From Campylobacterales bacterium (GTDB lineage Bacteria > Campylobacterota > Campylobacteria > Campylobacterales > Sulfurimonadaceae), in the NCBI GenBank assembly GCA_026390115.1, contig JAPLGO010000001.1:34978-98977 (forward strand): DNA of 64,000 nucleotides, given 5' to 3'. This document shows positions 40,467 to 54,150 of the stretch, in pieces. The notes below the pieces were generated by a model that was not told the origin of the DNA, did no database searches, and worked only from the letters and a program-made list of their open reading frames with translations. The position numbers were made by a program, and so were the translations under genes. How positions within the stretch are numbered: position 1 is the stretch's first letter; each line of letters begins with the position of its first letter.

Positions 40467-40481
40467 TTTTCACTTCTTCAA

Positions 40482-40508: not shown

Positions 40509-40576
40509 CTTTCACATGTACATAACAATCAAAAAGAATTTTTCGCTACAATCACAAAAAATAAAAAAGAGTCTAC

Positions 40577-40930
40577 TTGCGTCTTCCTAAAGGTTTTGGT
40601 AAAAACTATTTTACCCTCAGAGCTATTACCGCTACAACCAACCAGATAACACTCAATGCAAATGCCTCTCGTGTGCAAAATTTTCACATGCTAAACTTTA
40701 ATACTGATGAACTTGAAGCATTGGAAGAAGATGCCGAACTCACCGCCACCCTTTGCACGTTAAAACTCTCTGCCAAACCTTGCCATTGCAACTGCTACTA
40801 TTTAAAAAAAACAAGAAAAACTCTCAAACAATGCCACTCTCAAAAGAAAAATATAAACTATTTTAAAACTCTCAATAATGCAATCTCTCCTCCATTTTTA
40901 TATGCCAACTCACAGACAATAAAAATATAA
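40577..40930 (+). CDS. Possible Cys/His-containing leader ORF upstream of the TonB-dependent receptor
   Basis: TTG start, PCHCNC, ISPP near the C-terminus, ends 16 nt before the receptor; no clear RBS. Confidence 0.4.
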   Translation: MRLPKGFGKNYFTLRAITATTNQITLNANASRVQNFHMLNFNTDELEALEEDAELTATLCTLKLSAKPCHCNCYYLKKTRKTLKQCHSQKKNINYFKTLNNAISPPFLYANSQTIKI

Positions 40931-40946
40931 CTTAGGAATTAGATTT

Positions 40947-42764
40947 ATGAAAAACAGAATAAAATTATTAATGATACCCATTGCTTTAATCAGCTTACTT
41001 CATGCACAGCAAGATGTAACACTTGCCCCTATTGAAGTAATAAGTGCCACAAAAACGGCTCAGTCTCTTAAAGATGTCACATCAGATATCAATGTTATAA
41101 CCAGCCAAGAGATAGAAGAAAAACATTACACAACAGTGGCTGAGGCACTCAACAGTCTCTCCGGAATCAGCTTTACAAACAACGGCGGACTTGGCAAAAC
41201 TACTTCCATAAATCTAAGAGGGTTTGATTCAAATAGAGTTTTAGTTTTAATAGACGGAATAAGATATAACGACATTACGGGACTATCGGGAGCTCCATTT
41301 TCTGATTTGATGATAAGCGATATAGAACAGATAGAAGTTGTAAAAGGAGCTCAGTCCGGTGTTTGGGGCGCGGACGCCACTGCCGGTGTGATAAACATTA
41401 TCACAAAGGGCTCAAAAAAAGGTCTTCACGCTTCTAGCAGTGCTGAAGCTGGAAGTTTTAATACAAAAAAATATGGTGCACTGGTTTCTTACAAGGATGA
41501 GAGCTACTATGTAAAAATAGATTCCCAAAAAATTACTACAGATGGATTTAGTGCTCAGGTTCCAAAAGGAGATGATATAAAAAAGTATGAGAAGGACGGC
41601 TATACAAACATGACTTTTAATTTTAAATCTGGTTTAAATCTTGATGAATCAAACAAAGTTGACCTATCTCATACCATCATAGATTCTTACTGCGAATATG
41701 ACGGATACAAAGACCCTAACGGGAATCTATACTCAACTACAAAAAATAGTTTTTCTCAAATCAACTTCAACCATGTTGATAGTTTCAACAAAATTAACAT
41801 TTATGCCAAAAAATCACTCTTTGAGAGGAATTATCCGCAAGGCTATACAAAAGCGTATAGCGGTGACGTTCAAGAGTATGGTCTAAAATCGAATATCCCC
41901 TATGCCGATAGGAGCTTTATAGTTATCGGCACTGACTATAAAATATTTGAACACAAAAATGAGTTAAACGAGAAATATAGCAATAAGGGTATTTTTCTTA
42001 CAAATAATAACAAATTTGATGGATTTACCGGTGGAAAGACTATCCTTACGGAGTCCGTCAGAAGTGATATTTACGATACGTTTGATGACAAAATTACCGG
42101 TAAACTAGGTGTCAAACACATCAGCGAAAAGATTCAAGGGCTTGTTACAAGTGCAAATATCGGAACGGCATATAATGTACCGACTCTTTATAACCTTTAT
42201 GATCCTATGTACGGAAATAGCAATTTAAATCCTGAAAACACTCAAAGTTATGATGTGACTCTCGGCTACGATGATTTCAAAATCACCTACTTCAACAGCG
42301 ATGTAACCGATATGATTGATTATGATTTTACAACTTCAAAGTACAATAATATAGATGGAAAATCTAAACTTCAAGGGTATGAACTGGAATATAAAACCAA
42401 CATAACAGATGCAATTGCGGCAAATGCAAACTATACATTGCTTAATGCCAAAAACAGCAATAACAAAATATTGGCCAGAAAACCGCAAAAGAGTATTAAA
42501 GCCGGTTTAGATTATTATGCGTCTGAAGCTTTGCATTTTGGTTTAAACGGCGAATATGTCGGCAAAAGATTTGAAAAAGATGATGAAAAAGGCATGCAAA
42601 CCGGAGAATATGCGGTTGCAAACTTTGTAGCCAACTACGATATTAACAAAAACTTTCAAACATACCTGAAAGTGGATAATATAACAGACAGATACTATCA
42701 GGTAGTGGATGGTTATGCAACTGCGTCAAGAAGCGGATATATAGGGATGAAGGCTCTTTTTTAA
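40947..42764 (+). CDS. btuB: TonB-dependent receptor, probable cobalamin receptor
   Basis: Plug motifs (INLRGFDSNRVLVLIDG, IEVVKGAQSGVWG), C-terminal F; cob gene neighbourhood. Confidence 0.8.
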   Translation: MKNRIKLLMIPIALISLLHAQQDVTLAPIEVISATKTAQSLKDVTSDINVITSQEIEEKHYTTVAEALNSLSGISFTNNGGLGKTTSINLRGFDSNRVLVLIDGIRYNDITGLSGAPFSDLMISDIEQIEVVKGAQSGVWGADATAGVINIITKGSKKGLHASSSAEAGSFNTKKYGALVSYKDESYYVKIDSQKITTDGFSAQVPKGDDIKKYEKDGYTNMTFNFKSGLNLDESNKVDLSHTIIDSYCEYDGYKDPNGNLYSTTKNSFSQINFNHVDSFNKINIYAKKSLFERNYPQGYTKAYSGDVQEYGLKSNIPYADRSFIVIGTDYKIFEHKNELNEKYSNKGIFLTNNNKFDGFTGGKTILTESVRSDIYDTFDDKITGKLGVKHISEKIQGLVTSANIGTAYNVPTLYNLYDPMYGNSNLNPENTQSYDVTLGYDDFKITYFNSDVTDMIDYDFTTSKYNNIDGKSKLQGYELEYKTNITDAIAANANYTLLNAKNSNNKILARKPQKSIKAGLDYYASEALHFGLNGEYVGKRFEKDDEKGMQTGEYAVANFVANYDINKNFQTYLKVDNITDRYYQVVDGYATASRSGYIGMKALF

Positions 42765-43621
42765 TGAGAAAACTTTTTTTACTTCTTGTACTAGCTATTT
42801 CACTATTTGCGGGAGAGAGGATAGTAGCCCTCTCCCCGTCAATCAATGAAATAATTTTTGCGCTAGGCAAAGGCGAAGAGATAGTAGGCAATACAAGCTA
42901 CTGCGACTACCCCGAAACGTCGCAAAAAATAGCAAAAGTCGGAGGCTACTTCGATCCCTCGCTAGAAAAAATTCTTTTCCTCAATCCAACCCTTGTCATC
43001 ATGCAGCAAAACAGCTACCAATTAAGCCAGAAGTTGCAGCAGCTTGGAATAAAAACACAAGTTGTAAAAATTGACACTCTCTCGGATATAAAAAGTTCTA
43101 TACTGGATATCGGAAAAACTTTAAACAGACAGCAGGATGCAGAAAAGATAGTAAATAACATAAATCAAGAGCTGCAAAAGCTAAAAAATATCACGGCAGG
43201 CAAGAAAATTCTAATTGTTATTGGACACAACACTTCCCTTTCTTCAAAAATTTTCGTCGCAGGTCAAAACCTTTATTTTGACGATATTATCAACGAGAGC
43301 GAAAATACGAATGCTCTTCAAAGCCAAAGGAAAGGACAACCGATTCTAAATATGGAAAATATTATTGCATGTAATCCCGATATTGTTATACTTTTGGCAC
43401 ACTCCATGCATGAAAAAGGTTTAAGTGAAAATGATTTAACGGCTCCGTGGAGAGAACTCCCGATAAATGCAGGCAGAACAAACTCTATTTACATTATTGA
43501 TAAACTCTACGCAGGCATTCCGAGCGACAGACTGGTATATTTTTTACAAGATTTCCAAGGGATTTTACATGATTACAAAAAAAATAATTTGCTTCATCCT
43601 ATAAAAGAGAAACTATACTAA
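42764..43621 (+). CDS. btuF: Cobalamin/iron ABC transporter substrate-binding protein (BtuF-like)
   Basis: RIVALSPSINEIIFALG, CDYP, VGGYFDPSLEKI. Confidence 0.75.
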   Translation: MRKLFLLLVLAISLFAGERIVALSPSINEIIFALGKGEEIVGNTSYCDYPETSQKIAKVGGYFDPSLEKILFLNPTLVIMQQNSYQLSQKLQQLGIKTQVVKIDTLSDIKSSILDIGKTLNRQQDAEKIVNNINQELQKLKNITAGKKILIVIGHNTSLSSKIFVAGQNLYFDDIINESENTNALQSQRKGQPILNMENIIACNPDIVILLAHSMHEKGLSENDLTAPWRELPINAGRTNSIYIIDKLYAGIPSDRLVYFLQDFQGILHDYKKNNLLHPIKEKLY

Positions 43622-43622
43622 C

Positions 43623-44315
43623 ATGCTAAAAATCAAACGCTTCAGCAATGCCATACTCAGCAACATAACCGTTCATCTAAAAAAGGATGAAAACCTTATC
43701 CTGCTAGGCTCAAACGGTGCAGGAAAATCTACTCTGGCAAAAGTTGCTTGCGGAATTATCGACTCAGACAGAGTTGAGCTCTTTGGCGAAAAATTGGAAC
43801 ACCTCGGTGCCAAAAAAAGAGCAGAATTTATAAACTACATTCCCCCAAAACTGGAGATATTTGACGACTACATCTCACTCAGAGAGTATCTTGAATTAAG
43901 CAGACTCTATTCGTCATTGAACGTTGATGAAGCTATATCACTTTTAAATTTAGATGCGTTGGCAGATAAGCCATGTAAAACTCTCAGCAGCGGCGAGCAA
44001 CAGCTAACCATGCTGGCATCTTCAATACTTCACAACGCAAAACTAACTATATTTGATGAACCGACAGCAAATTTAGACCCGAGCAAAACACTGCAGGTTT
44101 ACGAGATGTTAAAAAGCGATGTAATTAAAAACAGAATCATCATAACCCATGACTTGAATCTGGCTCACAAACTGGGGTATAAAATACTCTACATGCAAGA
44201 GGGAGAGGTAGAGTTTTTTGATGAGAATAAAAAGTTTTTTGAAGCGTCAAACTTGGAAAAACTTTTTGGCTCAAGCATAAAACATATAGATGGCTATTTT
44301 GTGGTGAATTTATGA
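43623..44315 (+). CDS. ABC transporter ATP-binding protein (BtuD-like)
   Basis: GSNGAGKST, LSSGE, FDEPTANLD. Confidence 0.85.
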   Translation: MLKIKRFSNAILSNITVHLKKDENLILLGSNGAGKSTLAKVACGIIDSDRVELFGEKLEHLGAKKRAEFINYIPPKLEIFDDYISLREYLELSRLYSSLNVDEAISLLNLDALADKPCKTLSSGEQQLTMLASSILHNAKLTIFDEPTANLDPSKTLQVYEMLKSDVIKNRIIITHDLNLAHKLGYKILYMQEGEVEFFDENKKFFEASNLEKLFGSSIKHIDGYFVVNL

Positions 44316-45256
44316 AGTATCTCTTTATTATCCTCTCAATAATTCTGCTTCTTACGGCTCCGTTCTTTGGGCAGATTGAGATAAATCTCTTCAATATCAA
44401 TGACCCTGCGTTTATGGAGTATAAGCTCTTCTGGGATTTGAGACTTCCTAGAATTATTGTTGCCTTTTTCACGGGTGCACTTCTTGGTCTGAGCGGTCTC
44501 ATTTTTCAATCGCTCTTTAGAAACCCTATGAGTACACCATTTACGCTTGGTGTGGCAAGCGGAGCGACCTTGGGAAGTGCCTTTGCAATAGTTTTCGGCT
44601 TTGTCACACTCGTTCCGGTTTTTGGTTTTTTTGGAGCGCTTTTAACCATTGCGATACTCTTTAGCATCACCTCAAAAATTAAAGGGTATGACACCACATC
44701 GCTCCTACTGGTGGGTATCGCTCTCTCATTTTTTTACAGTGCCGCGCTTATGATTCTCTTTTATCTCAGCAGTCAATCTCAAAGCTATGAGATAGTTCGA
44801 TTCACCATGGGAAGCCTCGATGTGGTTGGAATCAGAGATACCGTTCCTGTTATTGTTGTAAGTATTTTACTTCTTTTCATCTCCTTTAAATACAAAAAAG
44901 AGATTAAGATGCTTCTTACCTCCTATGACAACGCCTTTTTAAAAGGGGTAGAGGTTCGCAAAATCAACACTATTCTCTTGGTATCGGTCTCAGTCGCCAT
45001 TGGAGTTGCTGTGAGCATAACCGGACCTATCGGTTTTGTCGGACTCATCATACCCCACATACTCAAAACCATCTACAAAAAGAGTTCCGACAAACTGCTC
45101 TTGGCTACATTTTTTTACAGCGGTATTTTTCTCGTTGGGTGTGATTTGATAGCAAGAAATCTTGGTACCTCTTCGGATGTGCCCATAGGAGTTATTACCT
45201 CCTTTTTAGGTGCTCCGTTTTTTATATACCTCATCATCAGGAGAGAAAAAATATGA
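44312..45256 (+). CDS. FecCD/BtuC-family ABC permease
   Basis: LRLPRI, FRNP..TPFTLGV, GPIGFVGLIIPH. Confidence 0.88.
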   Translation: MKYLFIILSIILLLTAPFFGQIEINLFNINDPAFMEYKLFWDLRLPRIIVAFFTGALLGLSGLIFQSLFRNPMSTPFTLGVASGATLGSAFAIVFGFVTLVPVFGFFGALLTIAILFSITSKIKGYDTTSLLLVGIALSFFYSAALMILFYLSSQSQSYEIVRFTMGSLDVVGIRDTVPVIVVSILLLFISFKYKKEIKMLLTSYDNAFLKGVEVRKINTILLVSVSVAIGVAVSITGPIGFVGLIIPHILKTIYKKSSDKLLLATFFYSGIFLVGCDLIARNLGTSSDVPIGVITSFLGAPFFIYLIIRREKI

Positions 45257-46521
45257 GAGCTTTATGCATCAGCGCAACCGCTTCCAATCAAGGCAAAACA
45301 ATACTGACAACGGCTCTGCTCTACCACTTTAGAGATTCTGTGAGACCTTTCAAGATTGGACCGGATTTTATAGACCCCCAGTTCCATACCAAAATATGCT
45401 CCACCCCATCCGTAAACCTAGATACCTTCATGATGAGAAAAGAGCAGGTTCAATGGATATTTCAAAAATACAGTGACAAAAAGATCTCTATCTGCGAAGG
45501 AGTGATGGGCTTTTATGACGGAATGGAGAAGGGATGCAGCGCTTACGATGTCTCTAAACTGTTAGACATCCCGACCATTCTTCTTCTCGACGGAAGCTCT
45601 AGCTACATAACTGTCTCTGCCATTTTAAAAGGGCTCAAAACATACAGAGACGACAACACCATAAAGGGTGTGATTTTAAACAAGCTTTCTTCATCTTCCC
45701 ACTTCGAGCTTATCAAAAATCAGATTTTAAAAGATTTCTCGGATGTCGCTGTTCTTGGATGGATAAAAAATGATTTAATCTCTCTGGGCGATACTCATCT
45801 GGGACTTGATTTGGAGAATATCACAAAGATAGAGAGCGTTTCAAAAGAAGTACTTGAAAATATAGATATAAAAATGGTTGAAAATTTGGCTAATGAAACT
45901 CGGATGTGCAAAAACGAAGAGGCAACTAATAGTGAATGGTACCCCTTTAAGAAAATTCAAAAAATAGACAAAAAACTTGCTATTGTGAGCGATGCAAACT
46001 TCTCGTTTTTGTACCATGACAATGCCCAGTTTTTAAAAGAGATTTTTAGAGAGGTCAGTTTTGTCTCCTCCGTAAGAGATGAGAGCATCGACGCGGATAT
46101 TGTCTATATTCCGGGTGGCTATGTCGAAACAAAAGAGAGCTATGAGAGACTAAAAGAGTCGCATAATTTTAGAGATTCTCTCATAACACATGCAAAAACA
46201 AAACCCATATATGCCGAATGTGCAGGAATGCTCTACCTCGGAAACTCCGTGGATGAGAAGAAGATGTCTGGCATTTTAGATTTGGATTTTACCCTCCACA
46301 AGAGGTTCCAGAGAATGGGGTACTACTACAATTCCAAAAACATCAAAGGGCATGCTTTTCACTACACAAATATTCTAGATGAAAAAGAGGGAACGGATAG
46401 ACTCTTCAAAACAAAAAAAGATGAGGGAAAAGTTGGAAGCTGGCAAAAAGAGAGAGTTTTTGGAACCTACCTTCATGTAATGTTCAGAAGCAACACTGAA
46501 ATAATTGACACACTATTTTAA
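45253..46521 (+). CDS. cbiA: Cobyrinate a,c-diamide synthase
   Basis: SNQGKT, FKIGPDFIDP, EGVMGFYDG, YAECAG, TYLH. Confidence 0.88.
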   Translation: MRALCISATASNQGKTILTTALLYHFRDSVRPFKIGPDFIDPQFHTKICSTPSVNLDTFMMRKEQVQWIFQKYSDKKISICEGVMGFYDGMEKGCSAYDVSKLLDIPTILLLDGSSSYITVSAILKGLKTYRDDNTIKGVILNKLSSSSHFELIKNQILKDFSDVAVLGWIKNDLISLGDTHLGLDLENITKIESVSKEVLENIDIKMVENLANETRMCKNEEATNSEWYPFKKIQKIDKKLAIVSDANFSFLYHDNAQFLKEIFREVSFVSSVRDESIDADIVYIPGGYVETKESYERLKESHNFRDSLITHAKTKPIYAECAGMLYLGNSVDEKKMSGILDLDFTLHKRFQRMGYYYNSKNIKGHAFHYTNILDEKEGTDRLFKTKKDEGKVGSWQKERVFGTYLHVMFRSNTEIIDTLF

Positions 46522-46569: not shown

Positions 46570-46599
46570 ATCCATTTCCGACTTGTGTCGGAAATGGAT
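46570..46599. terminator. Bidirectional terminator between cbiA and the cyc2-like gene
   Basis: ATCCATTTCCGAC-TTGT-GTCGGAAATGGAT, perfect 13-bp stem. Confidence 0.75.
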
Positions 46600-46608: not shown

Positions 46609-47952
46609 TTAGAACATAAACCAGCCGACAAGATAGAGCGTGTTGTTGTCTGATGCGTTGCGACCTGCACCGTCATAGTTTGTTTTTGCTCCGTTAAATT
46701 TATCATACATTATATATTGCATGGTAAATTTAACTTGGTTTATAGGCAGATAATCAAGTTCAGCAATTCCATAGCTGCTATCCGGTGCCAATGTGCCTGA
46801 TGTTCCATATCTTGTAGCATCTACCTTTCCGGATGTTAAAGCATACCCAAGTGAAGCACCATACTTATGGTCATAACGATAACCGGCTTTTACTTTGGTC
46901 GTTGAGAGTGAATCAGAGGTATTATCTGAAGCTCCCATTTCATGGCTCGCGTCCAGCTTTGCCTCTTCCCATGTTTTTGACGCCGTAGCAGTAACATTAT
47001 GCATATCATGCGTGTATTGATACTCTGCATCTACCGCCATGTCATGGTAAGAATCTAATTTATTACTCCCTACTCGACTTACATTTGTTGCCATTGCATA
47101 AGTTCCAACCATAATATAATGGTCTCCAGCCTCTTGCTGAAGAGCGATACGACCATAAGGTGAAGCTCCATCTACCACTGGGTCGGAACCTCCATTATGC
47201 CAACCCAGTATTGATTTTGGTCCGCCGGCAGGAATTGTCTGATACGCTCCTAGCTCAGCATAAACAAGATCATTAAACATAGCATAAATACTTGCTCCAG
47301 CCACCACATGTCCAAGTCCGCCATCTATAAGCGTAGCTGCTGAAGGCGTTGGCGCCATAGAGGAAGTAACATATGGAAATCCCCATGCAGGCGTGGAGTT
47401 CCACAAATCTTGCACTGTCGGATTATTATTGACAGAAACCCCGTATACTAGCTCTTTTGTTAAAACCGTAGCAGAGTTTGCATAGCGTATATCAACATTA
47501 TCCATCGATATATAGGGTGCTACCGCTTTGTCTTGAGGAAGAAGTGTTCCGTCGTAGGTCATCTGTATAAACGCACCCACATTATCATAAATCTTTCCGC
47601 CATAAAAAAGGCTGACTTGCGGAATCACAAGCTCACCGTTTCTATTTTCGCCATTGCCGTTTACAACCGCGTTCGTGCCGTCAGGATTTTTACTCTTAGA
47701 GATAGTTGTAGCATCCGCCATAATCATCGCAGCTAAGGGAAGCGGCATTTTTGTATCTCCACCCCCCATCACATAACCACGCATTTTAAAATCACGCCCG
47801 AAATGGGTAAGTTCCGGAAAAACGGTATGACACACTGTGCAATCCAACCCGGTTTGGCGTGCAAAACTTGGAATCGCATAAACATTTTCAACACCTATAA
47901 TTGAAAGAAACAGTGATACGAGTGTAACGCCGGACAAAGATATATTTTTCAT
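46609..47952 (-). CDS. cyc2: Cyc2-like fused monohaem cytochrome c - porin
   Basis: Signal peptide, then IPSFARQTGLDCTVCHTVFPELTHFGRDFKMRGY (Cyc2 signature), beta-strand body, terminal F. Confidence 0.8.
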   Translation of the reverse strand: MKNISLSGVTLVSLFLSIIGVENVYAIPSFARQTGLDCTVCHTVFPELTHFGRDFKMRGYVMGGGDTKMPLPLAAMIMADATTISKSKNPDGTNAVVNGNGENRNGELVIPQVSLFYGGKIYDNVGAFIQMTYDGTLLPQDKAVAPYISMDNVDIRYANSATVLTKELVYGVSVNNNPTVQDLWNSTPAWGFPYVTSSMAPTPSAATLIDGGLGHVVAGASIYAMFNDLVYAELGAYQTIPAGGPKSILGWHNGGSDPVVDGASPYGRIALQQEAGDHYIMVGTYAMATNVSRVGSNKLDSYHDMAVDAEYQYTHDMHNVTATASKTWEEAKLDASHEMGASDNTSDSLSTTKVKAGYRYDHKYGASLGYALTSGKVDATRYGTSGTLAPDSSYGIAELDYLPINQVKFTMQYIMYDKFNGAKTNYDGAGRNASDNNTLYLVGWFMF

Positions 47953-48159
47953 AATTTTAACTCCTCCTTATTTTAAAAGAGTAACTTTACAATGAAAGAG
48001 TGAAGATAGGATGAAGATTTGCTAAGCTTTCAATATTAAAAAATATACATTAAATTTTTTGATAAAATAAACAATTCTTTTAATAAAAATAATAATGGCG
48101 GATAAATATGCGTAAACTGTATGACTGCTATTACTTTTAACCATCTATAGAGGCACAAA

Positions 48160-48585
48160 ATGAGTTACCAATCCTGGTTTAATAAACATGCCGACAAGCA
48201 TACAACAATCGTAGAAAAACTTATCTCATGTGGAAAAAAAAGTGATGAAATCATCGACTATTTTGATTACGAGAACATGGTCAAAGAGGAGCCTGATTTT
48301 TGCCCTTTGTACAAGGAGAACAAAAAGTGCCATGCAATCGAGGAGCTTAACTGCTACCTCTGCGCCTGCCCTAACTTCCGCTTTAAAGATGAGGGGATTA
48401 AAAGAGTAGAAGAGAAAATGCAGTACAGTTTCTGCTCCATAAATTCAAAACATGGAATGCAGGGAGTTTATAGTGACAAAATCCACCAAGACTGCTCCAA
48501 ATGCGAAGTTCCGCATCTCAAAAGTTATATTACTGAACATTTTGATTTGAATTGGAAAAAGATTATGCAAAAGTGCACTCTATAG
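48160..48585 (+). CDS. Cysteine-rich small domain protein
   Basis: FCPLY..CH..LNCYLCACP.F...C...DCSKC.VPH; this type is typical of cobalamin gene clusters. Confidence 0.6.
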   Translation: MSYQSWFNKHADKHTTIVEKLISCGKKSDEIIDYFDYENMVKEEPDFCPLYKENKKCHAIEELNCYLCACPNFRFKDEGIKRVEEKMQYSFCSINSKHGMQGVYSDKIHQDCSKCEVPHLKSYITEHFDLNWKKIMQKCTL

Positions 48586-49383
48586 ATGGGTGTTAAAACT
48601 GCAATTACCCTTGATGCGTTAAACCGTCTCTTTACATCCTACGAATTCATCTCTTTAACAGAGACAACTTCGGGAATAATCGACACCACTTATATAGTTT
48701 TTACAAAAAACAGAAGCTACATTCTAAAAAAATACGAAAGAGCTATTTTACAGAAAATAGAAGAGGATAGTAGGCTTTTAGATGCGCTAAAACTTTTTGG
48801 GTTAAATGTACCGAGCTGCATAACAAGCTCTCATGGCTGGTACCTTTACGAAAAACTGGAAGGGTCGCAACCTACGCACATACAAAGCTATCACATTCAA
48901 GCTTTGGCAAGATTTTTGGCTAAATTCCATCAATACAGTTACAAAAAAGTCTCTCTTTTGAATGTGATAGACCAAGACGAAATATCCTCACACCTTCGCT
49001 ACGCCAAAGTAAACTTCTTTAATTACTATAAGAAACTGCAGTTTTTAAAAAAACATAGCAAAATAAACGATGGAGTTATTCACGGAGATATTTTCAAAGA
49101 CAACACGGTTTTTCAAGGTACAAAAATCGGAGTCTTCGATTTTATAGACTCGGCATGCGGCACTTTCGCTTTTGATGCAGCCGTTGCACTCATAGGTTTT
49201 GATACCAAAAAACAGAAGCGCTCTTTTGTAAACCTCTTTCTGGGCACCTACAACCAGCACGCCCCAAAGAAACTCTCCAAAAAAGAGCTGCTGCAATCCA
49301 TGGAGACGGCATGCGGATTTTACGCACTCAAGCGGATAGCAAATTTTAAAAGCACAAAAACAGCGAAGGAGCTGCTCAAATGA
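48586..49383 (+). CDS. APH / type II homoserine-kinase-like phosphotransferase
   Basis: GIIDTTY, GVIHGDIFKDN, GVFDF; ATGA overlap with cobD. Confidence 0.75.
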   Translation: MGVKTAITLDALNRLFTSYEFISLTETTSGIIDTTYIVFTKNRSYILKKYERAILQKIEEDSRLLDALKLFGLNVPSCITSSHGWYLYEKLEGSQPTHIQSYHIQALARFLAKFHQYSYKKVSLLNVIDQDEISSHLRYAKVNFFNYYKKLQFLKKHSKINDGVIHGDIFKDNTVFQGTKIGVFDFIDSACGTFAFDAAVALIGFDTKKQKRSFVNLFLGTYNQHAPKKLSKKELLQSMETACGFYALKRIANFKSTKTAKELLK

Positions 49384-50411
49384 AACATGGCGCGGGTATA
49401 TACAAAACAGCAAAAAAACTGGGGTGCGAAGCGGATGAAATCATAGACTTCTCATCAAACATAAACAGCTATAACCCTGACATTAACATAACCCTCACGG
49501 ACACCATGGTAGTAAAATACGGCGACAGCTCCTACTCTGAGCTGAGAAAAGCCATCACAAAAAAGTATCAAATCAAAAAAAAGCAGATGGCTCTATACAA
49601 CGGGGCGACCTCTGCTATCTTTGAACTTTTAAAAAATTTAAAAGAAAAGAGAGTTTACCTCTATGCACCTCTCTACGGCGAGTATGAAAAAGCTGCAAGG
49701 CAAGAGAATAAAAAAATAATCAAAATTAACCGTTTTACCGACCTCTATAAAAAACCGAAAAAAAACTCTCTAGTTGTCTTCGTAAACCCCTCCACTCCCG
49801 ATGGTAAATATTACAACTTAGAAAAGCTTTTTACCATTTGGAAAAAGCAAAACTGCACAATAATTTTGGATGAATCATTTTTGGAATTTGAGGGCCTCAT
49901 CTCTTTGAGAAACCAAATCAATTATAATAAAAAACTATACATAATCCAATCTTTTTCTAAATTTAATGCATGTGCAGGTGTAAGAATCGGAGCGATTTTC
50001 TCTGGTTTTTCAAATATTGAAAGATTAAAAACCCCTCTCTGGAATCTCTCCTCCTTTGACGCTCAGTTTTTAACACAGAGGCTCCAAGACAAAACCTTTG
50101 AGAACAAAAGCAAAGAGCTTCATCAAAGACATAAACAGGAACTTTTTAAGATTTTAGAAGAGTCAAAACTCTTCACTGAAATATGCAAAAGCGATTCAAA
50201 TTTTTTTCTCACAAAATCAGAGAGAGCAGATGAAATTTTTGAGCATCTTCTGAAACATAAAATTTTGGTAAGAACATGCGGAAGTTTTGACTTTTTGGAT
50301 AACACCTACCTGCGCTTTGCGGTGAAAGAGACTAACATGCATAACAGACTAACAAGGGCATTAAGCAAATTCACTCCTTTGTATTTTCAAGCAAATGTAG
50401 TAGAATATTAA
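49380..50411 (+). CDS. cobD: L-threonine-O-3-phosphate decarboxylase (PLP class I/II)
   Basis: KHGAG, IDFSSNIN, FVNPSTPDG, ILDESF, SFSKF.A.AGVRIG, YLRFAVK. Confidence 0.8.
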   Translation: MKHGAGIYKTAKKLGCEADEIIDFSSNINSYNPDINITLTDTMVVKYGDSSYSELRKAITKKYQIKKKQMALYNGATSAIFELLKNLKEKRVYLYAPLYGEYEKAARQENKKIIKINRFTDLYKKPKKNSLVVFVNPSTPDGKYYNLEKLFTIWKKQNCTIILDESFLEFEGLISLRNQINYNKKLYIIQSFSKFNACAGVRIGAIFSGFSNIERLKTPLWNLSSFDAQFLTQRLQDKTFENKSKELHQRHKQELFKILEESKLFTEICKSDSNFFLTKSERADEIFEHLLKHKILVRTCGSFDFLDNTYLRFAVKETNMHNRLTRALSKFTPLYFQANVVEY

Positions 50412-50429
50412 AAAAGGTGAGGGATATTT

Positions 50430-51833
50430 TTGATTTCAAAGCATGCAGGTTCCATAAAAAGTAAAATAATTGTTGATATACTTTTTTATACCGTAGTAAC
50501 ATCACTTGTGTACTTTTTTTCAGCTAAAGTTGTTGCACCTCTATCCTTAAGCGAATCATCGAGTATTTTTGCAATATGGCCACCTACGGGAGTTGCTCTT
50601 TCATTTCTATTTTTTAGAGGTAAGATAGTTATCCCCGGCATTTTTCTTGGCACCTTCTTTTTAAATATGACTCTCAGCTCGCCAATTGTGGCATTTGAGA
50701 TAGCCATTGGTAATACAATAGGTCCGGTTGTAACCTATTGGCTCGCCAACAACAGTGCAATTAAAGATGATATTTTTTATGACACAGACACTATTATCTC
50801 CTTTATTTTTTACAGCATAATTGGTGCATTCATAACATCTAGCATGGGAACGACTATGCTGTTTCTTAATGGTCTTTTATCACATGAACATCAAATATTA
50901 GGATGGATGGTATGGTTTTTTGGAGACCTTATAGGCTTTATTATGATTACGCCTGTTTTTATCGCCTATACTCTGCAAAATAATATCTCTTTTGCAGTAA
51001 AAAGTCATATAGGAGAGATTGCACTTATTTTCACCGTCTTAATTATATCATCCGTCTTGATTTTTGGGTCAGGGTACTTTTTTGATGAGAGATACCCAAT
51101 TGAATATCTAATTCTCTTTCCGCTTATATGGTCAAGTGTTCGTTTAGGGCATGGTATTAATCTTATCTTTTTAATAGTTGTAACCATTTTAGCTATTTTA
51201 GGAACTTCATCAGGATATAGCCAATTTTCATACGAAGGGGACCATAAGCTCTCCTTGATAATGCTTCAAATATTTATCTTTACAGTAACATTTTCTATTT
51301 TAATGATGACAGCGCAACGCTACCAAACGATAAGAATACTTGATGAGAAAGATCAGCTAAGTCTTATAGATTCACTAACTAAAATTGGAAATAGAAGATT
51401 TTTTAGTGAAACTTTTAAAAAAGAGCTTGAAAAAAGCTATAGATATAAACATCCTATTTCTTTGATTATGTTTGATATAGACCATTTTAAGCAAATTAAC
51501 GACTTATATGGGCATCATAGTGGAGATATAGTTTTGCAAGAACTCTCTTTATTGATAAGTTCTCATCTTCGCTCAAGTGACTTTTTTGCGAGATGGGGTG
51601 GAGAAGAGTTCACTATAATTCTTCCTGAAAACACTCTCTCTGAAGCTGTTTTAACTGCTGAAAAATTACGTAAATTTATTGAAGAATATCGCTTTACTAT
51701 AAACAAACAAGTCACATGTAGCTTTGGAGTTATTTTATGTGCTGATAATGAATTAACTGATGATGCTATCAACCGTGTTGATGCCAAGCTTTATGAGGCA
51801 AAAAAGAGTGGACGTAATAGAGTTGTATCTTAA
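50430..51833 (+). CDS. MASE1-GGDEF diguanylate cyclase
   Basis: IWPPTG (MASE1), many TMs, DIDHFK, RSSD I-site, ARWGGEEF. Confidence 0.9.
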   Translation: MISKHAGSIKSKIIVDILFYTVVTSLVYFFSAKVVAPLSLSESSSIFAIWPPTGVALSFLFFRGKIVIPGIFLGTFFLNMTLSSPIVAFEIAIGNTIGPVVTYWLANNSAIKDDIFYDTDTIISFIFYSIIGAFITSSMGTTMLFLNGLLSHEHQILGWMVWFFGDLIGFIMITPVFIAYTLQNNISFAVKSHIGEIALIFTVLIISSVLIFGSGYFFDERYPIEYLILFPLIWSSVRLGHGINLIFLIVVTILAILGTSSGYSQFSYEGDHKLSLIMLQIFIFTVTFSILMMTAQRYQTIRILDEKDQLSLIDSLTKIGNRRFFSETFKKELEKSYRYKHPISLIMFDIDHFKQINDLYGHHSGDIVLQELSLLISSHLRSSDFFARWGGEEFTIILPENTLSEAVLTAEKLRKFIEEYRFTINKQVTCSFGVILCADNELTDDAINRVDAKLYEAKKSGRNRVVS

Positions 51834-51854
51834 AAAAATTTAAAAGGCAACAAA

Positions 51855-53240
51855 ATGAACTCCCTCAGCATATTCGGAACAAGCTCTGACGCAGGTAAAT
51901 CTACTCTCAGTTTTGCCATTACCTATCTCTTGCATCACCGTGGCATAAGAGTCGCTCCTTATAAGGCGCAGAATGTCTCTAATAACTCAAAGGTTTGTGA
52001 TGACGGTGGGGAGATTGCTATTCCTCAGCACTTTGCGGCGGAGGCTATCGGGATTAAAACCTCTCATTTTATGAATCCTGTTCTTTTGAAATCAGGCTCA
52101 AAAAACTCTGCACACATGATTATAAACGGAGAGAGTGTCGGGGAGAAGGATGTTTGGAGCTATTACATAGATATCGATACGCTCAAACCGCATGCCAAGA
52201 GGGCTTTTAAAAAGCTTCTCAAAGAGTATGACTGTATTGTGGCGGAAGGTGCTGGGAGTCCTGTTGAGTTGAACCTGATGAGCAAAGATTTATCCAACAT
52301 CTATATTGCAGACGAGTTTAACACCAAAATTATCTTGGTTGCCGACATAGAGAGGGGCGGTGTTTTTGCCTCTATCTATGGGGTCTATAATCTGCTTCCA
52401 AAAAAACTGAAGAATAATGTTATCGGAGTGATTGTGAATAAATTCCGAGGAGATTTGAGCCTTTTTGATGAGGGTGTGCAGATTATAGAGGAGAGGTTCG
52501 GCATCAAAGTGCTTGGTGTTGTGCCGTTTAGGCCCTTTAACCTCGGTTTTGAGGACAGCGCGTCCATTATGAACTATGTTCAAGAGCTAAGCAAAAGCAT
52601 CATAAAAGTAGGCGTTATAAAACTTCCACACATCAGCAACTTTACCGATTTTGAGCCGCTTGTAGCAGACAGTGAAATAGAGCTCTCCTTCATCTCAAGC
52701 CCGAGTGAGATTGCATCATGCCAAATAGTGATTATTCCCGGAAGCAAGAGGGTCATTGACGATTTGTTATGGCTGAGAGAGCGAGGATTTGAGGAGAAGC
52801 TCAGCTCAAAAGAGCAGAAAGTAGTCGCTATTTGCGGTGGGTATGAGATGATGTTTGAGCGTATTTTAGACCCTTGGCATGTGGAATCTGAAGAGGCAGA
52901 GACAAAAGGGTTTGGACGGATAAAAGGCGATGTGCTTTTTGAAAAAAAGAAAATTGTAAAGAAGGGAAAATACAATCTTTTTGGTGCCATTGTCGATGGA
53001 TATGAAATACATAACGGTGTTGCAAAAAAAAGAGCCAAAAAGAAAAAAAATCTCTATGGAACATTTGTCCATGGACTTTTTGAATGTGATGCATTAAGAT
53101 ATACTTTATTTAATGCTATTGACAAGCGCTACTCCGGCTACAGTTTTGGGGAGTACAAAGCCAAATCGATAAAGCAGTTTGCAAGACATATCGAAGAGAA
53201 TGTTGACATAAATTTTATACAAAGGGCACTCAATGAGTAA
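51855..53240 (+). CDS. cobQ: Cobyric acid synthase
   Basis: GTSSDAGKS, KAQNVSNNS, EGAGSP.E.NL, ISNFTDFEPL, ICGGYEM, GTFVHG. Confidence 0.93.
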   Translation: MNSLSIFGTSSDAGKSTLSFAITYLLHHRGIRVAPYKAQNVSNNSKVCDDGGEIAIPQHFAAEAIGIKTSHFMNPVLLKSGSKNSAHMIINGESVGEKDVWSYYIDIDTLKPHAKRAFKKLLKEYDCIVAEGAGSPVELNLMSKDLSNIYIADEFNTKIILVADIERGGVFASIYGVYNLLPKKLKNNVIGVIVNKFRGDLSLFDEGVQIIEERFGIKVLGVVPFRPFNLGFEDSASIMNYVQELSKSIIKVGVIKLPHISNFTDFEPLVADSEIELSFISSPSEIASCQIVIIPGSKRVIDDLLWLRERGFEEKLSSKEQKVVAICGGYEMMFERILDPWHVESEEAETKGFGRIKGDVLFEKKKIVKKGKYNLFGAIVDGYEIHNGVAKKRAKKKKNLYGTFVHGLFECDALRYTLFNAIDKRYSGYSFGEYKAKSIKQFARHIEENVDINFIQRALNE

Positions 53241-54150
53241 TATTTTAATAGCGCTATTCGCCTATCTGATAGACAGAGTTTTTGGCGAGTTCAGTTTTTT
53301 TAGCAAGAGCACATTGAAACATCCTGTCGTGGCTATCGGCGAAATGGTTAGCTATTTTGAAAAGAGATTCTATCAAGACTCTGTTTTGCGCGGTTTCTTT
53401 CTTGTCACTTTTATCCTAGCCATGACAGGCACAGCCGCCCTGATTGTAGATCATTTTTTGGCTGAATTCCACGCACTTTTGTACATCATTGCATCATCAT
53501 TTATAGCCTCCATGTTCATAGCGCACAAGATGCTTTACGACTCTGTAAAAGGTGTACTATCGACCGAAAATAAGAAAGAAGCAATCTCCCAGCTTGTAAG
53601 TCGTGATGTTGATAAAATGAGTGATAGCGACATATACAAGGCAGACATCGAGACCTATGCCGAAAATCTTAGCGACGGAGTTATCGCTCCGCTTTTTTAT
53701 CTTCTTCTTTTTGGACTTGTGGGAGCTGCTCTCTACAAGGCGATAAACACCATGGATTCGATGGTGGGATACAGAAATGAGAGGTATGAGAAGTATGGAA
53801 AAGCTGCCGCCATTCTTGATGATATTGCAAACTTTGTCCCCTCCCGCATAACCGCTCTCCTCATTATGCTGCTCTCAAAGCAGAAAAACAACTTCTCATT
53901 TTATGAGGATGCCAAAAAACATGAGAGTCCCAATGCCGGCTATCCAATCACCGCCATGGCGCAGGCGCTGGGGCTGAAACTAGGCGGTCCGACATATTAT
54001 TTTGACAAACTCAAAGAAAAAGCCACCTTTGGAGATGGCAAAGAGGAGATTACGAGTGAAGATGTAGAGCGTGCTTTAGAGTTTAGAAGCAAAATAGATT
54101 TAGCACTTTTAATTACACTTGTTCTTCTTTATCTATTGCTGAAGCTGTAA
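53233..54150 (+). CDS. cbiB: Adenosylcobinamide-phosphate synthase
   Basis: HPVVAIG, VSRD, AENLSDGVIAP, KAINTMDSMVGYRN, SPNAGYP. Confidence 0.92.
   Translation: MSNILIALFAYLIDRVFGEFSFFSKSTLKHPVVAIGEMVSYFEKRFYQDSVLRGFFLVTFILAMTGTAALIVDHFLAEFHALLYIIASSFIASMFIAHKMLYDSVKGVLSTENKKEAISQLVSRDVDKMSDSDIYKADIETYAENLSDGVIAPLFYLLLFGLVGAALYKAINTMDSMVGYRNERYEKYGKAAAILDDIANFVPSRITALLIMLLSKQKNNFSFYEDAKKHESPNAGYPITAMAQALGLKLGGPTYYFDKLKEKATFGDGKEEITSEDVERALEFRSKIDLALLITLVLLYLLLKL

What the first reader, a model, noticed from the sequence alone, without database searches (positions are those of the whole stretch)
46609..47952. Cyc2-type iron-oxidase cytochrome-porin in a sulfur/hydrogen oxidiser lineage
Seen: PSFARQTG..C..CH...P.L..FG..F...GY directly after the signal peptide; internal PQVSLFYGG and GVSVNNNPTVQDLWNSTP; terminal Phe. 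Established: this is the Cyc2 architecture, and the internal motifs resemble (from memory) Acidithiobacillus-type cluster 2 Cyc2. The gene is monocistronic, divergently transcribed and wedged between cobalamin genes. Inference: extracellular electron uptake from Fe(II) or minerals, probably horizontally acquired.
Basis: partly seen in the sequence, partly recalled or inferred. Interest (0 to 1): 0.68.

Follow-up and report, generated by a model that had tools for sequence, protein, structure and literature searches.

The report
Cyc2-type cytochrome-porin in freshwater Sulfurimonas
This gene encodes an outer-membrane protein that fuses a single-haem cytochrome to a 16-stranded pore. It belongs to the known Cyc2 "iron oxidase" family, in the Acidithiobacillus-type branch, and is transcribed in lake water. 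That branch is common in bacteria that do not live on iron, so iron oxidation by this Sulfurimonas remains a hypothesis.

Summary
ORF 46609..47952 (−) encodes a 447-aa protein with a signal peptide, the published Cyc2 consensus (AIPSFARQT-GLD-CTVCH-TVF-PEL), one haem motif, a confidently predicted 16-strand β-barrel and a C-terminal Phe.

I recovered an authentic Acidithiobacillus rus-operon Cyc2 and Mariprofundus Cluster 1 Cyc2 proteins for direct comparison.
- It matches Cluster 1 only over the N-terminal ~110 residues.

So family membership and the "Acidithiobacillus-type" call both hold.

The gene is a stand-alone unit with its own RBS and terminator. It assembles as a discrete contig in four lake metatranscriptomes, at moderate depth.

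Two parts of the interpretation are weak.
- Recent horizontal acquisition is not supported. GC3 and codon usage are native, the Campylobacterota copies form one clade (20/20), and synteny is shared with the closest relatives.
- Fe(II) or mineral electron uptake is unproven. This sub-family occurs in hundreds of species, including Ralstonia, Paraburkholderia, Methylomicrobium and Flavobacterium. The window gene lacks the adjacent periplasmic cytochrome seen in half of the related loci. Published modelling argues that monohaem Cyc2 handles dissolved Fe2+, not solids.

Cyc2 homologues in Campylobacterota are already in the literature. This is a new member of a known kind.

The parts
46609..47952 (-). 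Complete CDS of the Cyc2-family fused cytochrome-porin (447 aa plus stop codon)
   Evidence: ORF list. Full-length homology to Acidithiobacillus rus-operon Cyc2. AF2 model with pLDDT 80.7 and pTM 0.79.
47875..47952 (-). Signal peptide (aa 1-26, ending in VYA, which is the 'A' of the AxPxFAR consensus)
   Evidence: Sequence inspection. Low pLDDT over residues 1-29 in the model. No dedicated signal-peptide predictor was available.
47755..47874 (-). Small helical monohaem cytochrome c domain (aa 27 to about 66), with AIPSFARQT, CTVCH and PEL
   Evidence: Matches the published consensus. P28, R32, Q33, G35, C38, C41, H42, P46, L48, G52, F55 and K56 are invariant in 55 homologues. Helices at 28-34 and 50-57 in the model.
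47827..47841 (-). Haem-binding motif CTVCH (aa 38-42), the only CxxCH in the protein
46612..47736 (-). 16-stranded beta-barrel porin domain (aa 73-447), ending in Phe
   Evidence: DSSP on the model shows 16 strands. Foldseek hits 16-strand general porins (chitoporin, OmpT, PorB, OmpF, OmpC) at E down to 2.5e-9.
47963..47969 (-). Shine-Dalgarno sequence AAGGAGG, 10 nt upstream of the ATG
   Evidence: Sequence.
47953..48159 (.). 207-bp AT-rich divergent intergenic region shared with the 141-aa Cys-rich gene; it presumably holds both promoters
   Evidence: Only weak sigma-70-like matches, no more than in shuffled sequence. RNA contigs of the gene stop at 47940-47960.
46570..46599 (-). Intrinsic-terminator-like hairpin (13-bp stem, 4-nt loop) starting 10 nt after the stop codon
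   Evidence: The hairpin lies well inside all four RNA contigs, whose 3' ends are 110-440 nt further downstream (46457, 46459, 46318 and 46130, inside the 3' end of convergent cobB), so these contig ends do not map termination at the hairpin.

Best explanation
The gene encodes an outer-membrane fused cytochrome-porin of the Cyc2 family, in the Acidithiobacillus-type branch ('Cluster 2' in the text of McAllister 2020 and Keffer 2021). The host is a freshwater Sulfurimonas. Shown here: a Sec signal peptide, a roughly 40-residue monohaem c-type domain carrying the family's diagnostic motif, a 16-strand barrel with a C-terminal Phe, full-length homology to the rus-operon Cyc2, and transcription in lake water as its own unit. 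Inferred from the family: after export and haem attachment, the barrel inserts in the outer membrane with the cytochrome domain plugging its periplasmic mouth. A small dissolved reductant, most likely Fe2+, enters the pore and reduces the haem. The electron then passes to a soluble periplasmic c-type cytochrome encoded elsewhere in the genome, and on to a terminal oxidase or the denitrification chain. I rate Cyc2-family membership as near certain. I rate Fe(II) oxidation as the physiological role at roughly 40-45%, and a role in energy conservation lower still. The confidence value given is for the whole statement.
For: All published Cyc2 criteria are met: signal peptide, single CxxCH, AxPxFAR[Q/K][T/Y], PxL four residues after the haem motif, length of at least 365 aa, and a 16-strand porin (criteria; tests). 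The founding member was recovered independently. Rusticyanin (PDB 1CUR, exact match) led to the rus operon in L084 with its 485-aa Cyc2. That protein aligns with the query over residues 25-447 at 30% identity, E 9e-51, sharing PQ(Q)VSLFY(A/G)G and GV.VNN.PT..DLWN.TP.W. A family HMM built without the query scores the Acidithiobacillus Cyc2 at 319 bits and Mariprofundus Cluster 1 Cyc2 at 73 bits. The 30% figure falls in the within-cluster range for the A. ferrooxidans group (27-35%) and above the between-cluster range (17-23%) in Keffer's Fig. S7. An electron-transfer role for the family is supported by gene neighbourhood. In 42 of 84 related loci a c-type cytochrome lies adjacent on the same strand. 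In 17 loci this is a dihaem c4-type protein, whose representative is 41% identical to Acidithiobacillus Cyc1. The haem motif and surrounding residues are invariant. The gene is transcribed in situ. Four lake-water metatranscriptomes assemble a discrete contig over it at depths 118, 63, 40 and 25. In the same runs topA reaches about 12-48, 11-39, 1-11 and 4-21, and the hydrogenase is lower in most bins, mostly under 10. A. ferrooxidans Cyc2 and Cyc2PV-1 are biochemically shown Fe(II) oxidases.
Against: No assay exists for any member of the Campylobacterota clade. These include Paraburkholderia, Trinickia, Methylomicrobium, Microbulbifer, Flavobacterium, Ignavibacteria and Gemmatimonadota, and it is also on Ralstonia solanacearum megaplasmids. 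Most of these are not iron oxidisers. The Cyc2 authors state that function in Clusters 2 and 3 is the least certain and that other functions are possible. The window gene and most of its Sulfurimonadaceae relatives have no adjacent periplasmic cytochrome. The only other small c-type cytochrome in the window is a cytochrome c'-like protein 7.5 kb away. RNA depth is moderate, 10-20 times below flagellin, whereas cyc2 of Gallionellaceae iron oxidisers sits at the 99.99th percentile. Contig depth is only a crude measure of expression. Cluster 3 references were not obtained, so the cluster call rests on similarity and not on a full tree. The position of the haem domain relative to the barrel could not be inspected in the model.
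Confidence: 0.45

Rival explanations
1. It is a Cyc2-family redox porin that does oxidise Fe(II), but not for energy. It would serve as a protective or housekeeping device that oxidises Fe2+ at the cell surface, limiting Fe2+ entry and Fenton chemistry at an oxic-anoxic interface or conditioning iron for uptake. The electrons would be dumped into the general periplasmic cytochrome pool.
For: The sub-family is broadly present in heterotrophs, methanotrophs and plant pathogens that do not grow on iron. Transcript depth is moderate, not dominant. The gene is stand-alone, with no dedicated respiratory partners. The host already has hydrogen-based energy metabolism in the window, as a [NiFe]-hydrogenase.
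Against: There is no direct evidence for a protective role in any Cyc2 homologue in the papers read. Half of the related loci are coupled to periplasmic cytochromes, as in the respiratory rus operon.
Confidence: 0.25
2. The conduit works on a different extracellular redox partner or in the outward direction. It could exchange electrons with soluble shuttles such as humics, flavins or reduced sulfur species. It could also help deliver electrons to Mn(IV) or Fe(III) phases, as needed by Mn-oxide-reducing Sulfurimonas.
For: A Sulfurimonas that couples sulfide oxidation to solid Mn(IV) oxide reduction is cited as requiring some form of extracellular electron transfer, and a freshwater Sulfurimonas MAG expressed EET genes near cable bacteria while lacking a recognised porin. 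Cyc2 is also carried by the electrode-oxidising Tenderia electrophaga. The organism lives in stratified freshwater, and homologues come from lake and groundwater metagenomes, including ferruginous Lac Pavin.
Against: Published modelling indicates that a single haem at the periplasmic mouth of a narrow 16-strand pore cannot reach a solid surface, so only small dissolved species could react. All biochemically tested family members oxidise Fe(II). No multihaem partner is encoded nearby.
Confidence: 0.15
3. The protein is functionally tied to cobalamin or corrinoid acquisition, because it sits inside the TonB-receptor, BtuFCD-like and cob gene cluster. It might, for example, reduce or oxidise cobalt or corrinoids at the outer membrane.
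For: The gene lies antisense within the B12 cluster in the window and in the two closest relatives (71% and 73% identity). It is next to, or one gene away from, the same conserved 141/142-aa Cys-rich gene.
Against: The linkage is confined to that shallow sub-clade. Copies at 67%, 63% and 53% identity sit next to RND efflux with two-component systems, ABC efflux, or flagellar genes. None of the roughly 80 other loci has window-like B12 or TonB genes nearby; a single weak ABC-ATPase match in L014 is the only exception. The gene is on the opposite strand with its own RBS and terminator, and its RNA depth is uncoupled from the cob genes. The insertion point differs between genomes, which fits inherited synteny with local rearrangement.
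Confidence: 0.05

Closest known systems
Cyc2 of Acidithiobacillus ferrooxidans/ferrivorans (first gene of the rus operon; outer-membrane Fe(II) oxidase; 'Cluster 2' in McAllister 2020 and Keffer 2021)
   Same: The domain order is the same: signal peptide, monohaem domain with ALPSFARQTG..C..CH...P.L, then a porin. Homology is full-length (30% identity, E 9e-51; 319 bits to the family HMM). The internal motifs PQQVSLFYAG and GVDVNNTPTAMDLWNTTPDW are shared, and both end in an aromatic residue.
   Different: The window protein is 447 aa, against 485 aa. It comes from a neutrophilic freshwater Campylobacterota, not an acidophile. It is not in an operon with cyc1, cox genes and rusticyanin. Identity of 30% is too low to transfer redox potential or substrate specificity.
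Cyc2PV-1 of Mariprofundus ferrooxydans and other Cluster 1 Cyc2 (Zetaproteobacteria, Gallionellaceae, Chlorobi)
   Same: The fused cytochrome-porin architecture and the N-terminal AIP.FARQTG..C..CH...P.L..FGR.FK motif are the same. The barrel is 16-stranded by prediction.
   Different: Only residues 26-131 align (33-35% identity, E about 1e-11). The Zetaproteobacteria HMM gives the query 44.5 bits, the same as it gives Acidithiobacillus Cyc2 at 48.9 bits. The window protein is therefore not in Cluster 1, the cluster with the best functional support. The Epsilonproteobacteria reported as nested within zetaproteobacterial Cyc2 must be a different set of sequences.
Uncharacterised Cyc2 homologues of Ralstonia, Paraburkholderia, Caballeronia, Methylomicrobium, Bacteroidota and others (FeGenie-type 'Cyc2' calls in metagenome studies)
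   Same: These are the closest relatives outside Campylobacterota, at 40-45% identity over the full length and with the same motifs. A Campylobacterota (Sulfurospirillaceae) MAG with a 'cluster 2' cyc2 has already been reported.
   Different: The Campylobacterota sequences form their own clade with 20/20 bootstraps. Many of the other lineages pair the gene with a downstream c4-type or small monohaem cytochrome, which the window lacks.
Porin-multihaem cytochrome complexes (MtoAB, PioAB, MtrCAB)
   Same: They do the same general job, moving electrons across the outer membrane through a beta-barrel.
   Different: Those are separate decahaem cytochromes threaded through 26-strand barrels, and they can contact solids. 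Here a single haem is fused to a 16-strand barrel. No multihaem protein is encoded nearby.
General 16-strand porins (OmpF/OmpC, PorB, chitoporin, OprO/OprP)
   Same: They are the best structural matches for the barrel, with TM-scores of 0.55-0.60 on the target.
   Different: They show no detectable sequence similarity and have no N-terminal haem domain.

Membership tests
Cyc2 fused cytochrome-porin family (criteria of Keffer et al. 2021, PMC8406198) | N-terminal signal peptide | tested here: met
   By inspection: MKN, then a hydrophobic core, then VYA|IP. The corresponding region is disordered in the model. No SignalP-type tool was available.
Cyc2 fused cytochrome-porin family (criteria of Keffer et al. 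2021, PMC8406198) | Exactly one CxxCH haem-binding motif near the N-terminus | tested here: met
   CTVCH at aa 38-42 is the only one. All 120 of the closest homologues also have exactly one.
Cyc2 fused cytochrome-porin family (criteria of Keffer et al. 2021, PMC8406198) | AxPxFAR[Q/K][T/Y] motif just upstream of CxxCH (stated to be unique to Cyc2) | tested here: met
   AIPSFARQT at aa 26-34, three residues before Cys38. PxFAR[QK][TY] is present in 93 of the 120 best homologues, and the rest are single-residue variants.
Cyc2 fused cytochrome-porin family (criteria of Keffer et al. 2021, PMC8406198) | PxL motif four residues downstream of CxxCH | tested here: met
   H42-TVF-P46-E-L48. P46 and L48 are invariant in 55 homologues.
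Cyc2 fused cytochrome-porin family (criteria of Keffer et al. 2021, PMC8406198) | Length of at least 365 aa (FeGenie filter) | tested here: met
   447 aa.
Cyc2 fused cytochrome-porin family (criteria of Keffer et al. 2021, PMC8406198) | C-terminal 16-stranded beta-barrel porin | tested here: met
   The AF2 model has 16 strands, pLDDT 80.7 and pTM 0.79. Foldseek matches 16-strand porins at E down to 2.5e-9.
Cyc2 fused cytochrome-porin family (criteria of Keffer et al. 2021, PMC8406198) | Detectable full-length homology to the founding member, A. ferrooxidans-type Cyc2 | tested here: met
   30% identity over query residues 25-447, E 9e-51. The family HMM scores the Acidithiobacillus protein at 319 bits. 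Its identity as Cyc2 was verified by its position at the head of the rus operon.
Cyc2 fused cytochrome-porin family (criteria of Keffer et al. 2021, PMC8406198) | Score above the FeGenie Cyc2 HMM cut-offs | not testable with these tools
   The FeGenie HMMs are not in any library available here. Pfam and NCBIfam have no Cyc2 model and gave no hits.
Cyc2 fused cytochrome-porin family (criteria of Keffer et al. 2021, PMC8406198) | Covalently bound haem and Fe(II) oxidase activity | not testable with these tools
   This needs biochemistry.
Cyc2 Cluster 2 (Acidithiobacillus-type, numbering of the McAllister 2020 and Keffer 2021 text) | Closer to A. ferrooxidans-type Cyc2 than to Cluster 1 references | tested here: met
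   166 bits over the full length against Acidithiobacillus Cyc2, versus about 50 bits over the N-terminus only against Mariprofundus. The 30% identity lies in the within-cluster range of Keffer's Fig. S7.
Cyc2 Cluster 2 (Acidithiobacillus-type, numbering of the McAllister 2020 and Keffer 2021 text) | Placement in the published tree, excluding Cluster 3 (Leptospirillum Cyt572, Tenderia) | not tested
   No Cluster 3 reference sequence could be obtained, and the published alignment is on figshare and not held here. The cluster labels of the Fig. S7 table, as extracted, disagree with the paper's text.
Cyc2 Cluster 1 (neutrophilic iron oxidisers) | Full-length similarity to Zetaproteobacteria, Gallionellaceae or Chlorobi Cyc2 | tested here: not met
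   Only residues 26-131 align, and the score against a 112-sequence Zetaproteobacteria HMM is 44.5 bits.
rus-type iron respiratory operon | cyc2 co-transcribed with a periplasmic cytochrome (cyc1) and a terminal oxidase | tested here: not met
   The window gene is flanked by opposite-strand cob genes. No adjacent CxxCH ORF is present in the window or in L001-L003 and L005-L007. This is typical of the family but not a defining feature of Cyc2.
Porin-multihaem cytochrome complexes (MtoAB/PioAB/MtrCAB) | Separate decahaem cytochrome plus a barrel of about 26 strands | tested here: not met
   One haem and 16 strands in a single polypeptide.

The most novel reading that the evidence does not exclude
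Freshwater Sulfurimonadaceae (Sulfurimonas, Sulfuricurvum, Hydrocurvibacter) share an old, clade-specific Cyc2-type conduit that they express at lake redoxclines. They would use it to draw electrons from dissolved Fe(II), or to exchange electrons with another extracellular redox species, alongside sulfur and hydrogen oxidation. That would make these abundant 'sulfur oxidisers' cryptic participants in iron cycling. It would also provide the first functional anchor for the large, uncharacterised neutrophilic part of Cyc2 Cluster 2.
Probability: 0.25. Interest if true: 0.6.

Novelty: new member of a known kind. Interest (0 to 1): 0.35.

Why it matters
Cyc2 is the main genetic marker used to infer microbial iron oxidation from genomes and metagenomes. 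This case shows both its reach and its limits. The window gene is an unambiguous Cyc2-family member in a lineage treated as a sulfur and hydrogen oxidiser, and it is transcribed in lake water. However, it belongs to the branch that is also common in bacteria with no known iron metabolism.

If a cultured relative were shown to oxidise Fe(II) through this protein, the known metabolic range of Sulfurimonadaceae at freshwater and groundwater redox interfaces would widen. It would also calibrate how far "Cluster 2" Cyc2 calls can be trusted. If not, it would be a useful warning against reading every FeGenie Cyc2 hit as iron oxidation.

Tried and rejected
- **Profile and sequence libraries.** Pfam, NCBIfam and PDB sequence searches of the protein gave nothing. 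These libraries hold no Cyc2 model or structure.
- **Printed reference sequences.** A full-text search for Cyc2 sequence strings in papers found none. The supplements of the 2025 Cyc2 phylogeny paper name no Campylobacterota taxa.
- **Getting Acidithiobacillus Cyc2 from plasmids.** The plasmid tblastn returned only a different, Acidiphilium-like plasmid homologue labelled A. ferrooxidans, not the rus-operon gene. I reached the real gene through rusticyanin instead.
- **Exact Cyc2PV-1.** The MS peptides retrieved M. ferrooxydans orthologues from other strains (only 1-2 of 12 peptides match exactly), not PV-1 itself. I used them as Cluster 1 references.
- **Recent-HGT hypothesis.** Rejected on GC3, codon usage, clade monophyly and shared synteny. 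The raised total GC (0.432, z = 1.7) comes from codon positions 1 and 2, that is, from amino-acid composition.
- **Cobalamin-linked function.** Rejected as the main reading, because the linkage is absent outside the closest relatives.
- **Regulatory RNA.** No cobalamin riboswitch or other Rfam family was found upstream of the TonB-receptor operon or around the gene.
- **Promoter.** The sigma-70-like scan found no more sites than in shuffled sequence, so no promoter is claimed.
- **First tree script.** It timed out and was rerun with vectorised distances.
Full report
**1. What is in the sequence.**
The ORF at 46609..47952 on the minus strand encodes 447 aa. Its N-terminus reads MKNISLSGVTLVSLFLSIIGVENVYA|IPSFARQTGLDCTVCHTVFPELTHFGRDFKMRGY. 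This is a Sec-type signal peptide followed at once by a short cytochrome c module with a single CxxCH. The protein also contains PQVSLFYGG and GVSVNNNPTVQDLWNSTPAWGFPY, and it ends in ...LYLVGWFMF.

Pfam, NCBIfam and PDB sequence searches return nothing, because these libraries hold no model or structure for this family. The protein is far from an orphan, though. The indexed search found more than 7000 homologues at E<=1e-3 among the 8000 candidates scored. An exhaustive HMMER scan found 2876 clusters at 50% identity, 418 of them at E<=1e-30. All 120 best hits have exactly one CxxCH and 109 of them end in Phe. In a 55-sequence alignment P28, R32, Q33, G35, C38, C41, H42, P46, L48, G52, F55 and K56 are invariant.

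The window's protein shares its 90% cluster with a protein of a Sulfurimonas sp. MAG. The nearest cultured relative is Hydrocurvibacter sulfurireducens / "Sulfurimonas sp. HSL-1716", at 71% identity.

**2. Is it a Cyc2?**
Keffer et al. 2021 (PMC8406198) define the family by six features:
- a signal peptide;
- a single CxxCH;
- an AxPxFAR[Q/K][T/Y] motif just upstream, said to be unique to Cyc2;
- a PxL motif four residues downstream;
- length of at least 365 aa;
- a 16-strand porin.

The query reads A26-I-P-S-F-A-R-Q-T34, GLD, C38-TV-C-H42, TVF, P46-E-L48, and is 447 aa long. An AlphaFold2 model built on the 55-sequence alignment is confident (pLDDT 80.7, pTM 0.79). It shows short helices around the haem motif followed by exactly 16 long β-strands. 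Foldseek against the PDB returns 16-strand general porins (chitoporin, OmpT, PorB, OmpF, OmpC) at E down to 2.5e-9. All testable criteria are met.

**3. Which branch?**

For the Acidithiobacillus reference:
- A recalled rusticyanin sequence matched PDB 1CUR exactly.
- Its homologue P0134, named as A. ferrivorans rusticyanin, led to a contig carrying the canonical rus operon. The order is a 485-aa protein, a dihaem Cyc1, an ORF, CoxB, CoxA, CoxC, CoxD and rusticyanin.
- The 485-aa protein begins ...ALPSFARQTGWSCAACHTSYPQLTPMGRMFKLLGF.
- It aligns with the query over residues 25-447 at 30% identity, E 9e-51. PQQVSLFYAGE matches PQVSLFYGGK, and GVDVNNTPTAMDLWNTTPDW matches GVSVNNNPTVQDLWNSTPAW.

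For Cluster 1, I concatenated the MS/MS peptides of the biochemically validated Cyc2PV-1 from Keffer's Table S1. This retrieved about 120 Mariprofundus and other Zetaproteobacteria proteins.

The comparison gives a clear result:
- The query matches the Cluster 1 proteins only over residues 26-131 (33-35% identity, E about 1e-11).
- An HMM of the query's relatives, built without the query and its nearest kin, scores the Acidithiobacillus Cyc2 at 319 bits and Mariprofundus Cyc2 at 73 bits.
- A Zetaproteobacteria HMM scores the query at 44.5 bits and the Acidithiobacillus Cyc2 at 48.9 bits, which is effectively the same.

The 30% identity lies in the within-cluster range for the A. ferrooxidans group (27-35%) and above the between-cluster range (17-23%) in Keffer's Fig. 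S7. So the protein belongs with the Acidithiobacillus-type branch. McAllister 2020 and the text of Keffer 2021 call this Cluster 2. It is not in Cluster 1.

Two caveats apply. No Cluster 3 reference (Cyt572, Tenderia) could be obtained, so this is a similarity-based placement and not a position in the full tree. Also, the row labels of the Fig. S7 table, as extracted, appear to swap clusters 2 and 3 relative to the paper's text.

**4. Gene organisation and expression.**
The upstream genes are on the + strand: a TonB-dependent receptor (40947-42764), a BtuF-like binding protein, an ABC ATPase, a FecCD permease and CobB (45253-46521). CobB converges on the cyc2-like gene. Diverging from the gene are a 141-aa Cys-rich gene, an APH-type kinase and CobD. 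These are followed by a MASE1-GGDEF protein, CobQ and CbiB.

The gene has an AAGGAGG ribosome-binding site, a 207-bp AT-rich upstream spacer, and a 13-bp-stem hairpin ten bases after the stop codon.

The exact sequence is present in freshwater and lake metagenomes and in four lake-water metatranscriptomes. In each RNA assembly a discrete contig covers just this gene, from about 46130-46460 to 47940-47960. Assembler depths in runs X6, X7, X13 and X14 compare as follows:

| Feature | X6 | X7 | X13 | X14 |
|---|---|---|---|---|
| cyc2-like gene | 118 | 63 | 40 | 25 |
| topA | 12-48 | 11-39 | 1-11 | 4-21 |
| flagellin | 2157 | 1023 | 206 | 648 |

Depth across the adjacent cobB and cobD-side genes is lower in three of the four runs (X6, X7 and X13). 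In X14 the gene's contigs (21-25) are level with the upstream BtuD-like gene (23-32) and with one cobD bin (22.6). The hydrogenase is mostly below 10, rising to 27 (X6) and 68 (X7) in one bin.

The gene is therefore transcribed in situ as its own unit at a moderate level. Contig depth is a crude measure, and DNA carry-over cannot be excluded.

**5. Was it horizontally acquired?**
- **Composition.** Total GC (0.432) is the highest of 53 window genes (z = 1.7). GC3 is ordinary (0.342, z = -0.42) and codon usage ranks 13 of 53, so the excess reflects amino-acid composition.
- **Phylogeny.** In a neighbour-joining tree of 145 sequences rooted on the Acidithiobacillus Cyc2, all ten taxonomically labelled Campylobacterota sequences fall in one 58-member clade. 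These are Sulfurimonas, Hydrocurvibacter, Sulfuricurvum, "Thiovulaceae" and Campylobacterales MAGs, including one from Lac Pavin. The clade has 20/20 bootstraps and contains no labelled outsiders.
- **Synteny.** In HSL-1716 the gene lies antisense between the FecCD and ABC-ATPase genes of the same transporter. It is one gene away from the 142-aa Cys-rich gene and near the CobQ orthologue. In a 73%-identical MAG copy it is divergent from the 142-aa gene and next to the TonB receptor, as in the window. Copies at 67%, 63% and 53% identity sit in unrelated contexts: RND efflux with two-component systems and ApbE, ABC efflux, and flagellar genes.

The gene is thus an old resident of this lineage that has moved around over longer times. 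A recent import into this genome is not supported. Ancient transfer between phyla is plausible for the family as a whole, and a published analysis reaches that conclusion.

**6. What the wider family says about function.**
The 80 best, at 38-54% identity, include Paraburkholderia kururiensis, Trinickia, Methylomicrobium lacus, Microbulbifer hainanensis, Flavobacterium, Ignavibacteria, Gemmatimonadota, Rokubacteria, Acidobacteriota and Thermodesulfovibrionales. Plasmid and chromid records add Ralstonia solanacearum (43.6% identity), Caballeronia, Methylocystis and Acidiphilium. Most of these organisms are not iron oxidisers.

Keffer et al. note that Burkholderia, Ralstonia and Xanthomonas homologues were abundant. 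They also state that function is least certain outside Cluster 1 and that other functions are possible.

On the other hand, the gene neighbourhood supports an electron-transfer role for the family. In 42 of 84 loci a c-type cytochrome lies within 600 bp on the same strand. In 17 loci this is a dihaem c4-type protein, whose representative is 41% identical to Acidithiobacillus Cyc1. That is a cyc2-cyc1 module conserved across phyla. The window gene and nearly all its Sulfurimonadaceae relatives lack such a partner. The only other small c-type cytochrome in the 64 kb is a cytochrome c'-like protein at 38743-39153.

**7. Most likely mechanism.**
Shown here: the protein is a secreted monohaem cytochrome fused to a 16-strand barrel, homologous along its length to a proven outer-membrane Fe(II) oxidase, and it is expressed in lake water.

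Inferred from published modelling of the family: the cytochrome domain plugs the periplasmic mouth of the barrel. Dissolved Fe2+ must enter the narrow pore to reduce the haem. The electron then leaves to a soluble periplasmic carrier. Solid minerals or electrodes are unlikely direct substrates for a single-haem protein.

My probabilities are:
- about 0.45 for Fe(II) oxidation feeding the respiratory chain;
- about 0.25 for Fe(II) oxidation with a non-energetic, protective or iron-handling role;
- about 0.15 for a different extracellular redox partner or outward electron flow, a possibility raised by Mn-oxide-reducing Sulfurimonas and by freshwater Sulfurimonas expressing EET genes near cable bacteria;
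- about 0.05 for a cobalamin-linked role, because the B12 linkage does not extend beyond the closest relatives.

**8. Novelty.**
Cyc2 homologues in Campylobacterota are already in the literature. Epsilonproteobacterial sequences appear in a 2025 Cyc2 phylogeny, and a Sulfurospirillaceae MAG with a "cluster 2" cyc2 has been reported. One of the related loci found here comes from a study that catalogued Cyc2 homologues across 12 phyla. One Sulfurimonas study looked for Cyc2 and found none in its marine species.

I found no paper that examines this gene in Sulfurimonas, Sulfuricurvum or Hydrocurvibacter specifically. It is a new member of a known kind, of moderate interest.

Noticed in passing
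window 40400-46521 and 48160-54150: This is a cobalamin salvage and late-biosynthesis cluster: TonB receptor, BtuF-, BtuD- and BtuC-like genes, CobB, then a Cys-rich protein, a kinase, CobD, CobQ and CbiB. It has no detectable cobalamin riboswitch. Rfam found nothing at gathering score in the whole window, and nothing at E<=1 in the 40400-41000 leader.
   Followed up: partly
window 48160-48585 (+); L001 6464-6892; L086 6172-6600: A 141/142-aa cytoplasmic Cys-rich protein with only a weak match to PF04071. It is 56-66% identical in the two closest relatives. In each case it sits next to, or one gene away from, the cyc2-like gene and is transcribed divergently. In the window it heads the kinase-CobD operon, so it is probably B12-related, but its function is unknown.
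   Followed up: partly
window 6666-10977 (-): A [NiFe]-hydrogenase large subunit (9424-10977) is followed by the small subunit (8469-9443), and then by a methyl-accepting chemotaxis protein with two CxxCH motifs (6666-8465). All of this is embedded in a flagellin and flagellin-glycosylation island. The large-before-small order and the MCP neighbour suggest a sensory rather than respiratory hydrogenase. RNA depth is low.
   Followed up: no
window 50430-51833 (+): A MASE1-GGDEF diguanylate cyclase interrupts the cob genes. In run X6 its 5' part has the highest RNA contig depth of that neighbourhood, up to about 590.
   Followed up: no
window 38743-39153 (-): A 136-aa secreted protein with a C-terminal CxxCH and a weak cytochrome c' (PF01322) match. 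It is the only other small c-type cytochrome in the window and a conceivable, but unlinked, periplasmic electron carrier.
   Followed up: no
window 39363-40466 (+): A 367-aa protein with apolipoprotein-like helical repeats. It has by far the most deviant codon usage of the 53 window genes (JS 0.112, against 0.064 or less for the others).
   Followed up: no
window 16969-19849 (-): Three tandem flagellin genes. The middle one (18224-18859, 211 aa) lacks the Flagellin_C domain. RNA contig depth is very high, up to about 2100-2600.
   Followed up: no
L008-L083 (related loci in other phyla), e.g. L033 2311-2979: In 17 loci from other phyla the cyc2-like gene is followed on the same strand by a c4-type dihaem cytochrome. 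Its representative is 41% identical to Acidithiobacillus Cyc1, so the cyc2-cyc1 pair of the rus operon is a module conserved well beyond acidophiles. A further 14 or more loci carry small monohaem cytochromes instead.
   Followed up: partly
Literature: PMC8406198 Fig. S7 versus its text: The text of Keffer 2021 and of McAllister 2020 puts A. ferrooxidans Cyc2 in Cluster 2 and Cyt572 in Cluster 3. The row labels of the Fig. S7 table, as extracted, read the other way round. Cluster numbers should therefore be quoted with their source.
   Followed up: partly
plasmid records CP084173.1 and NC_009469.1: A plasmid labelled Acidithiobacillus ferrooxidans and an Acidiphilium cryptum JF-5 plasmid give matches to the query with identical statistics (34.3% identity, same bit score). 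This is a second, plasmid-borne Cyc2-like gene, distinct from the rus-operon Cyc2.
   Followed up: no
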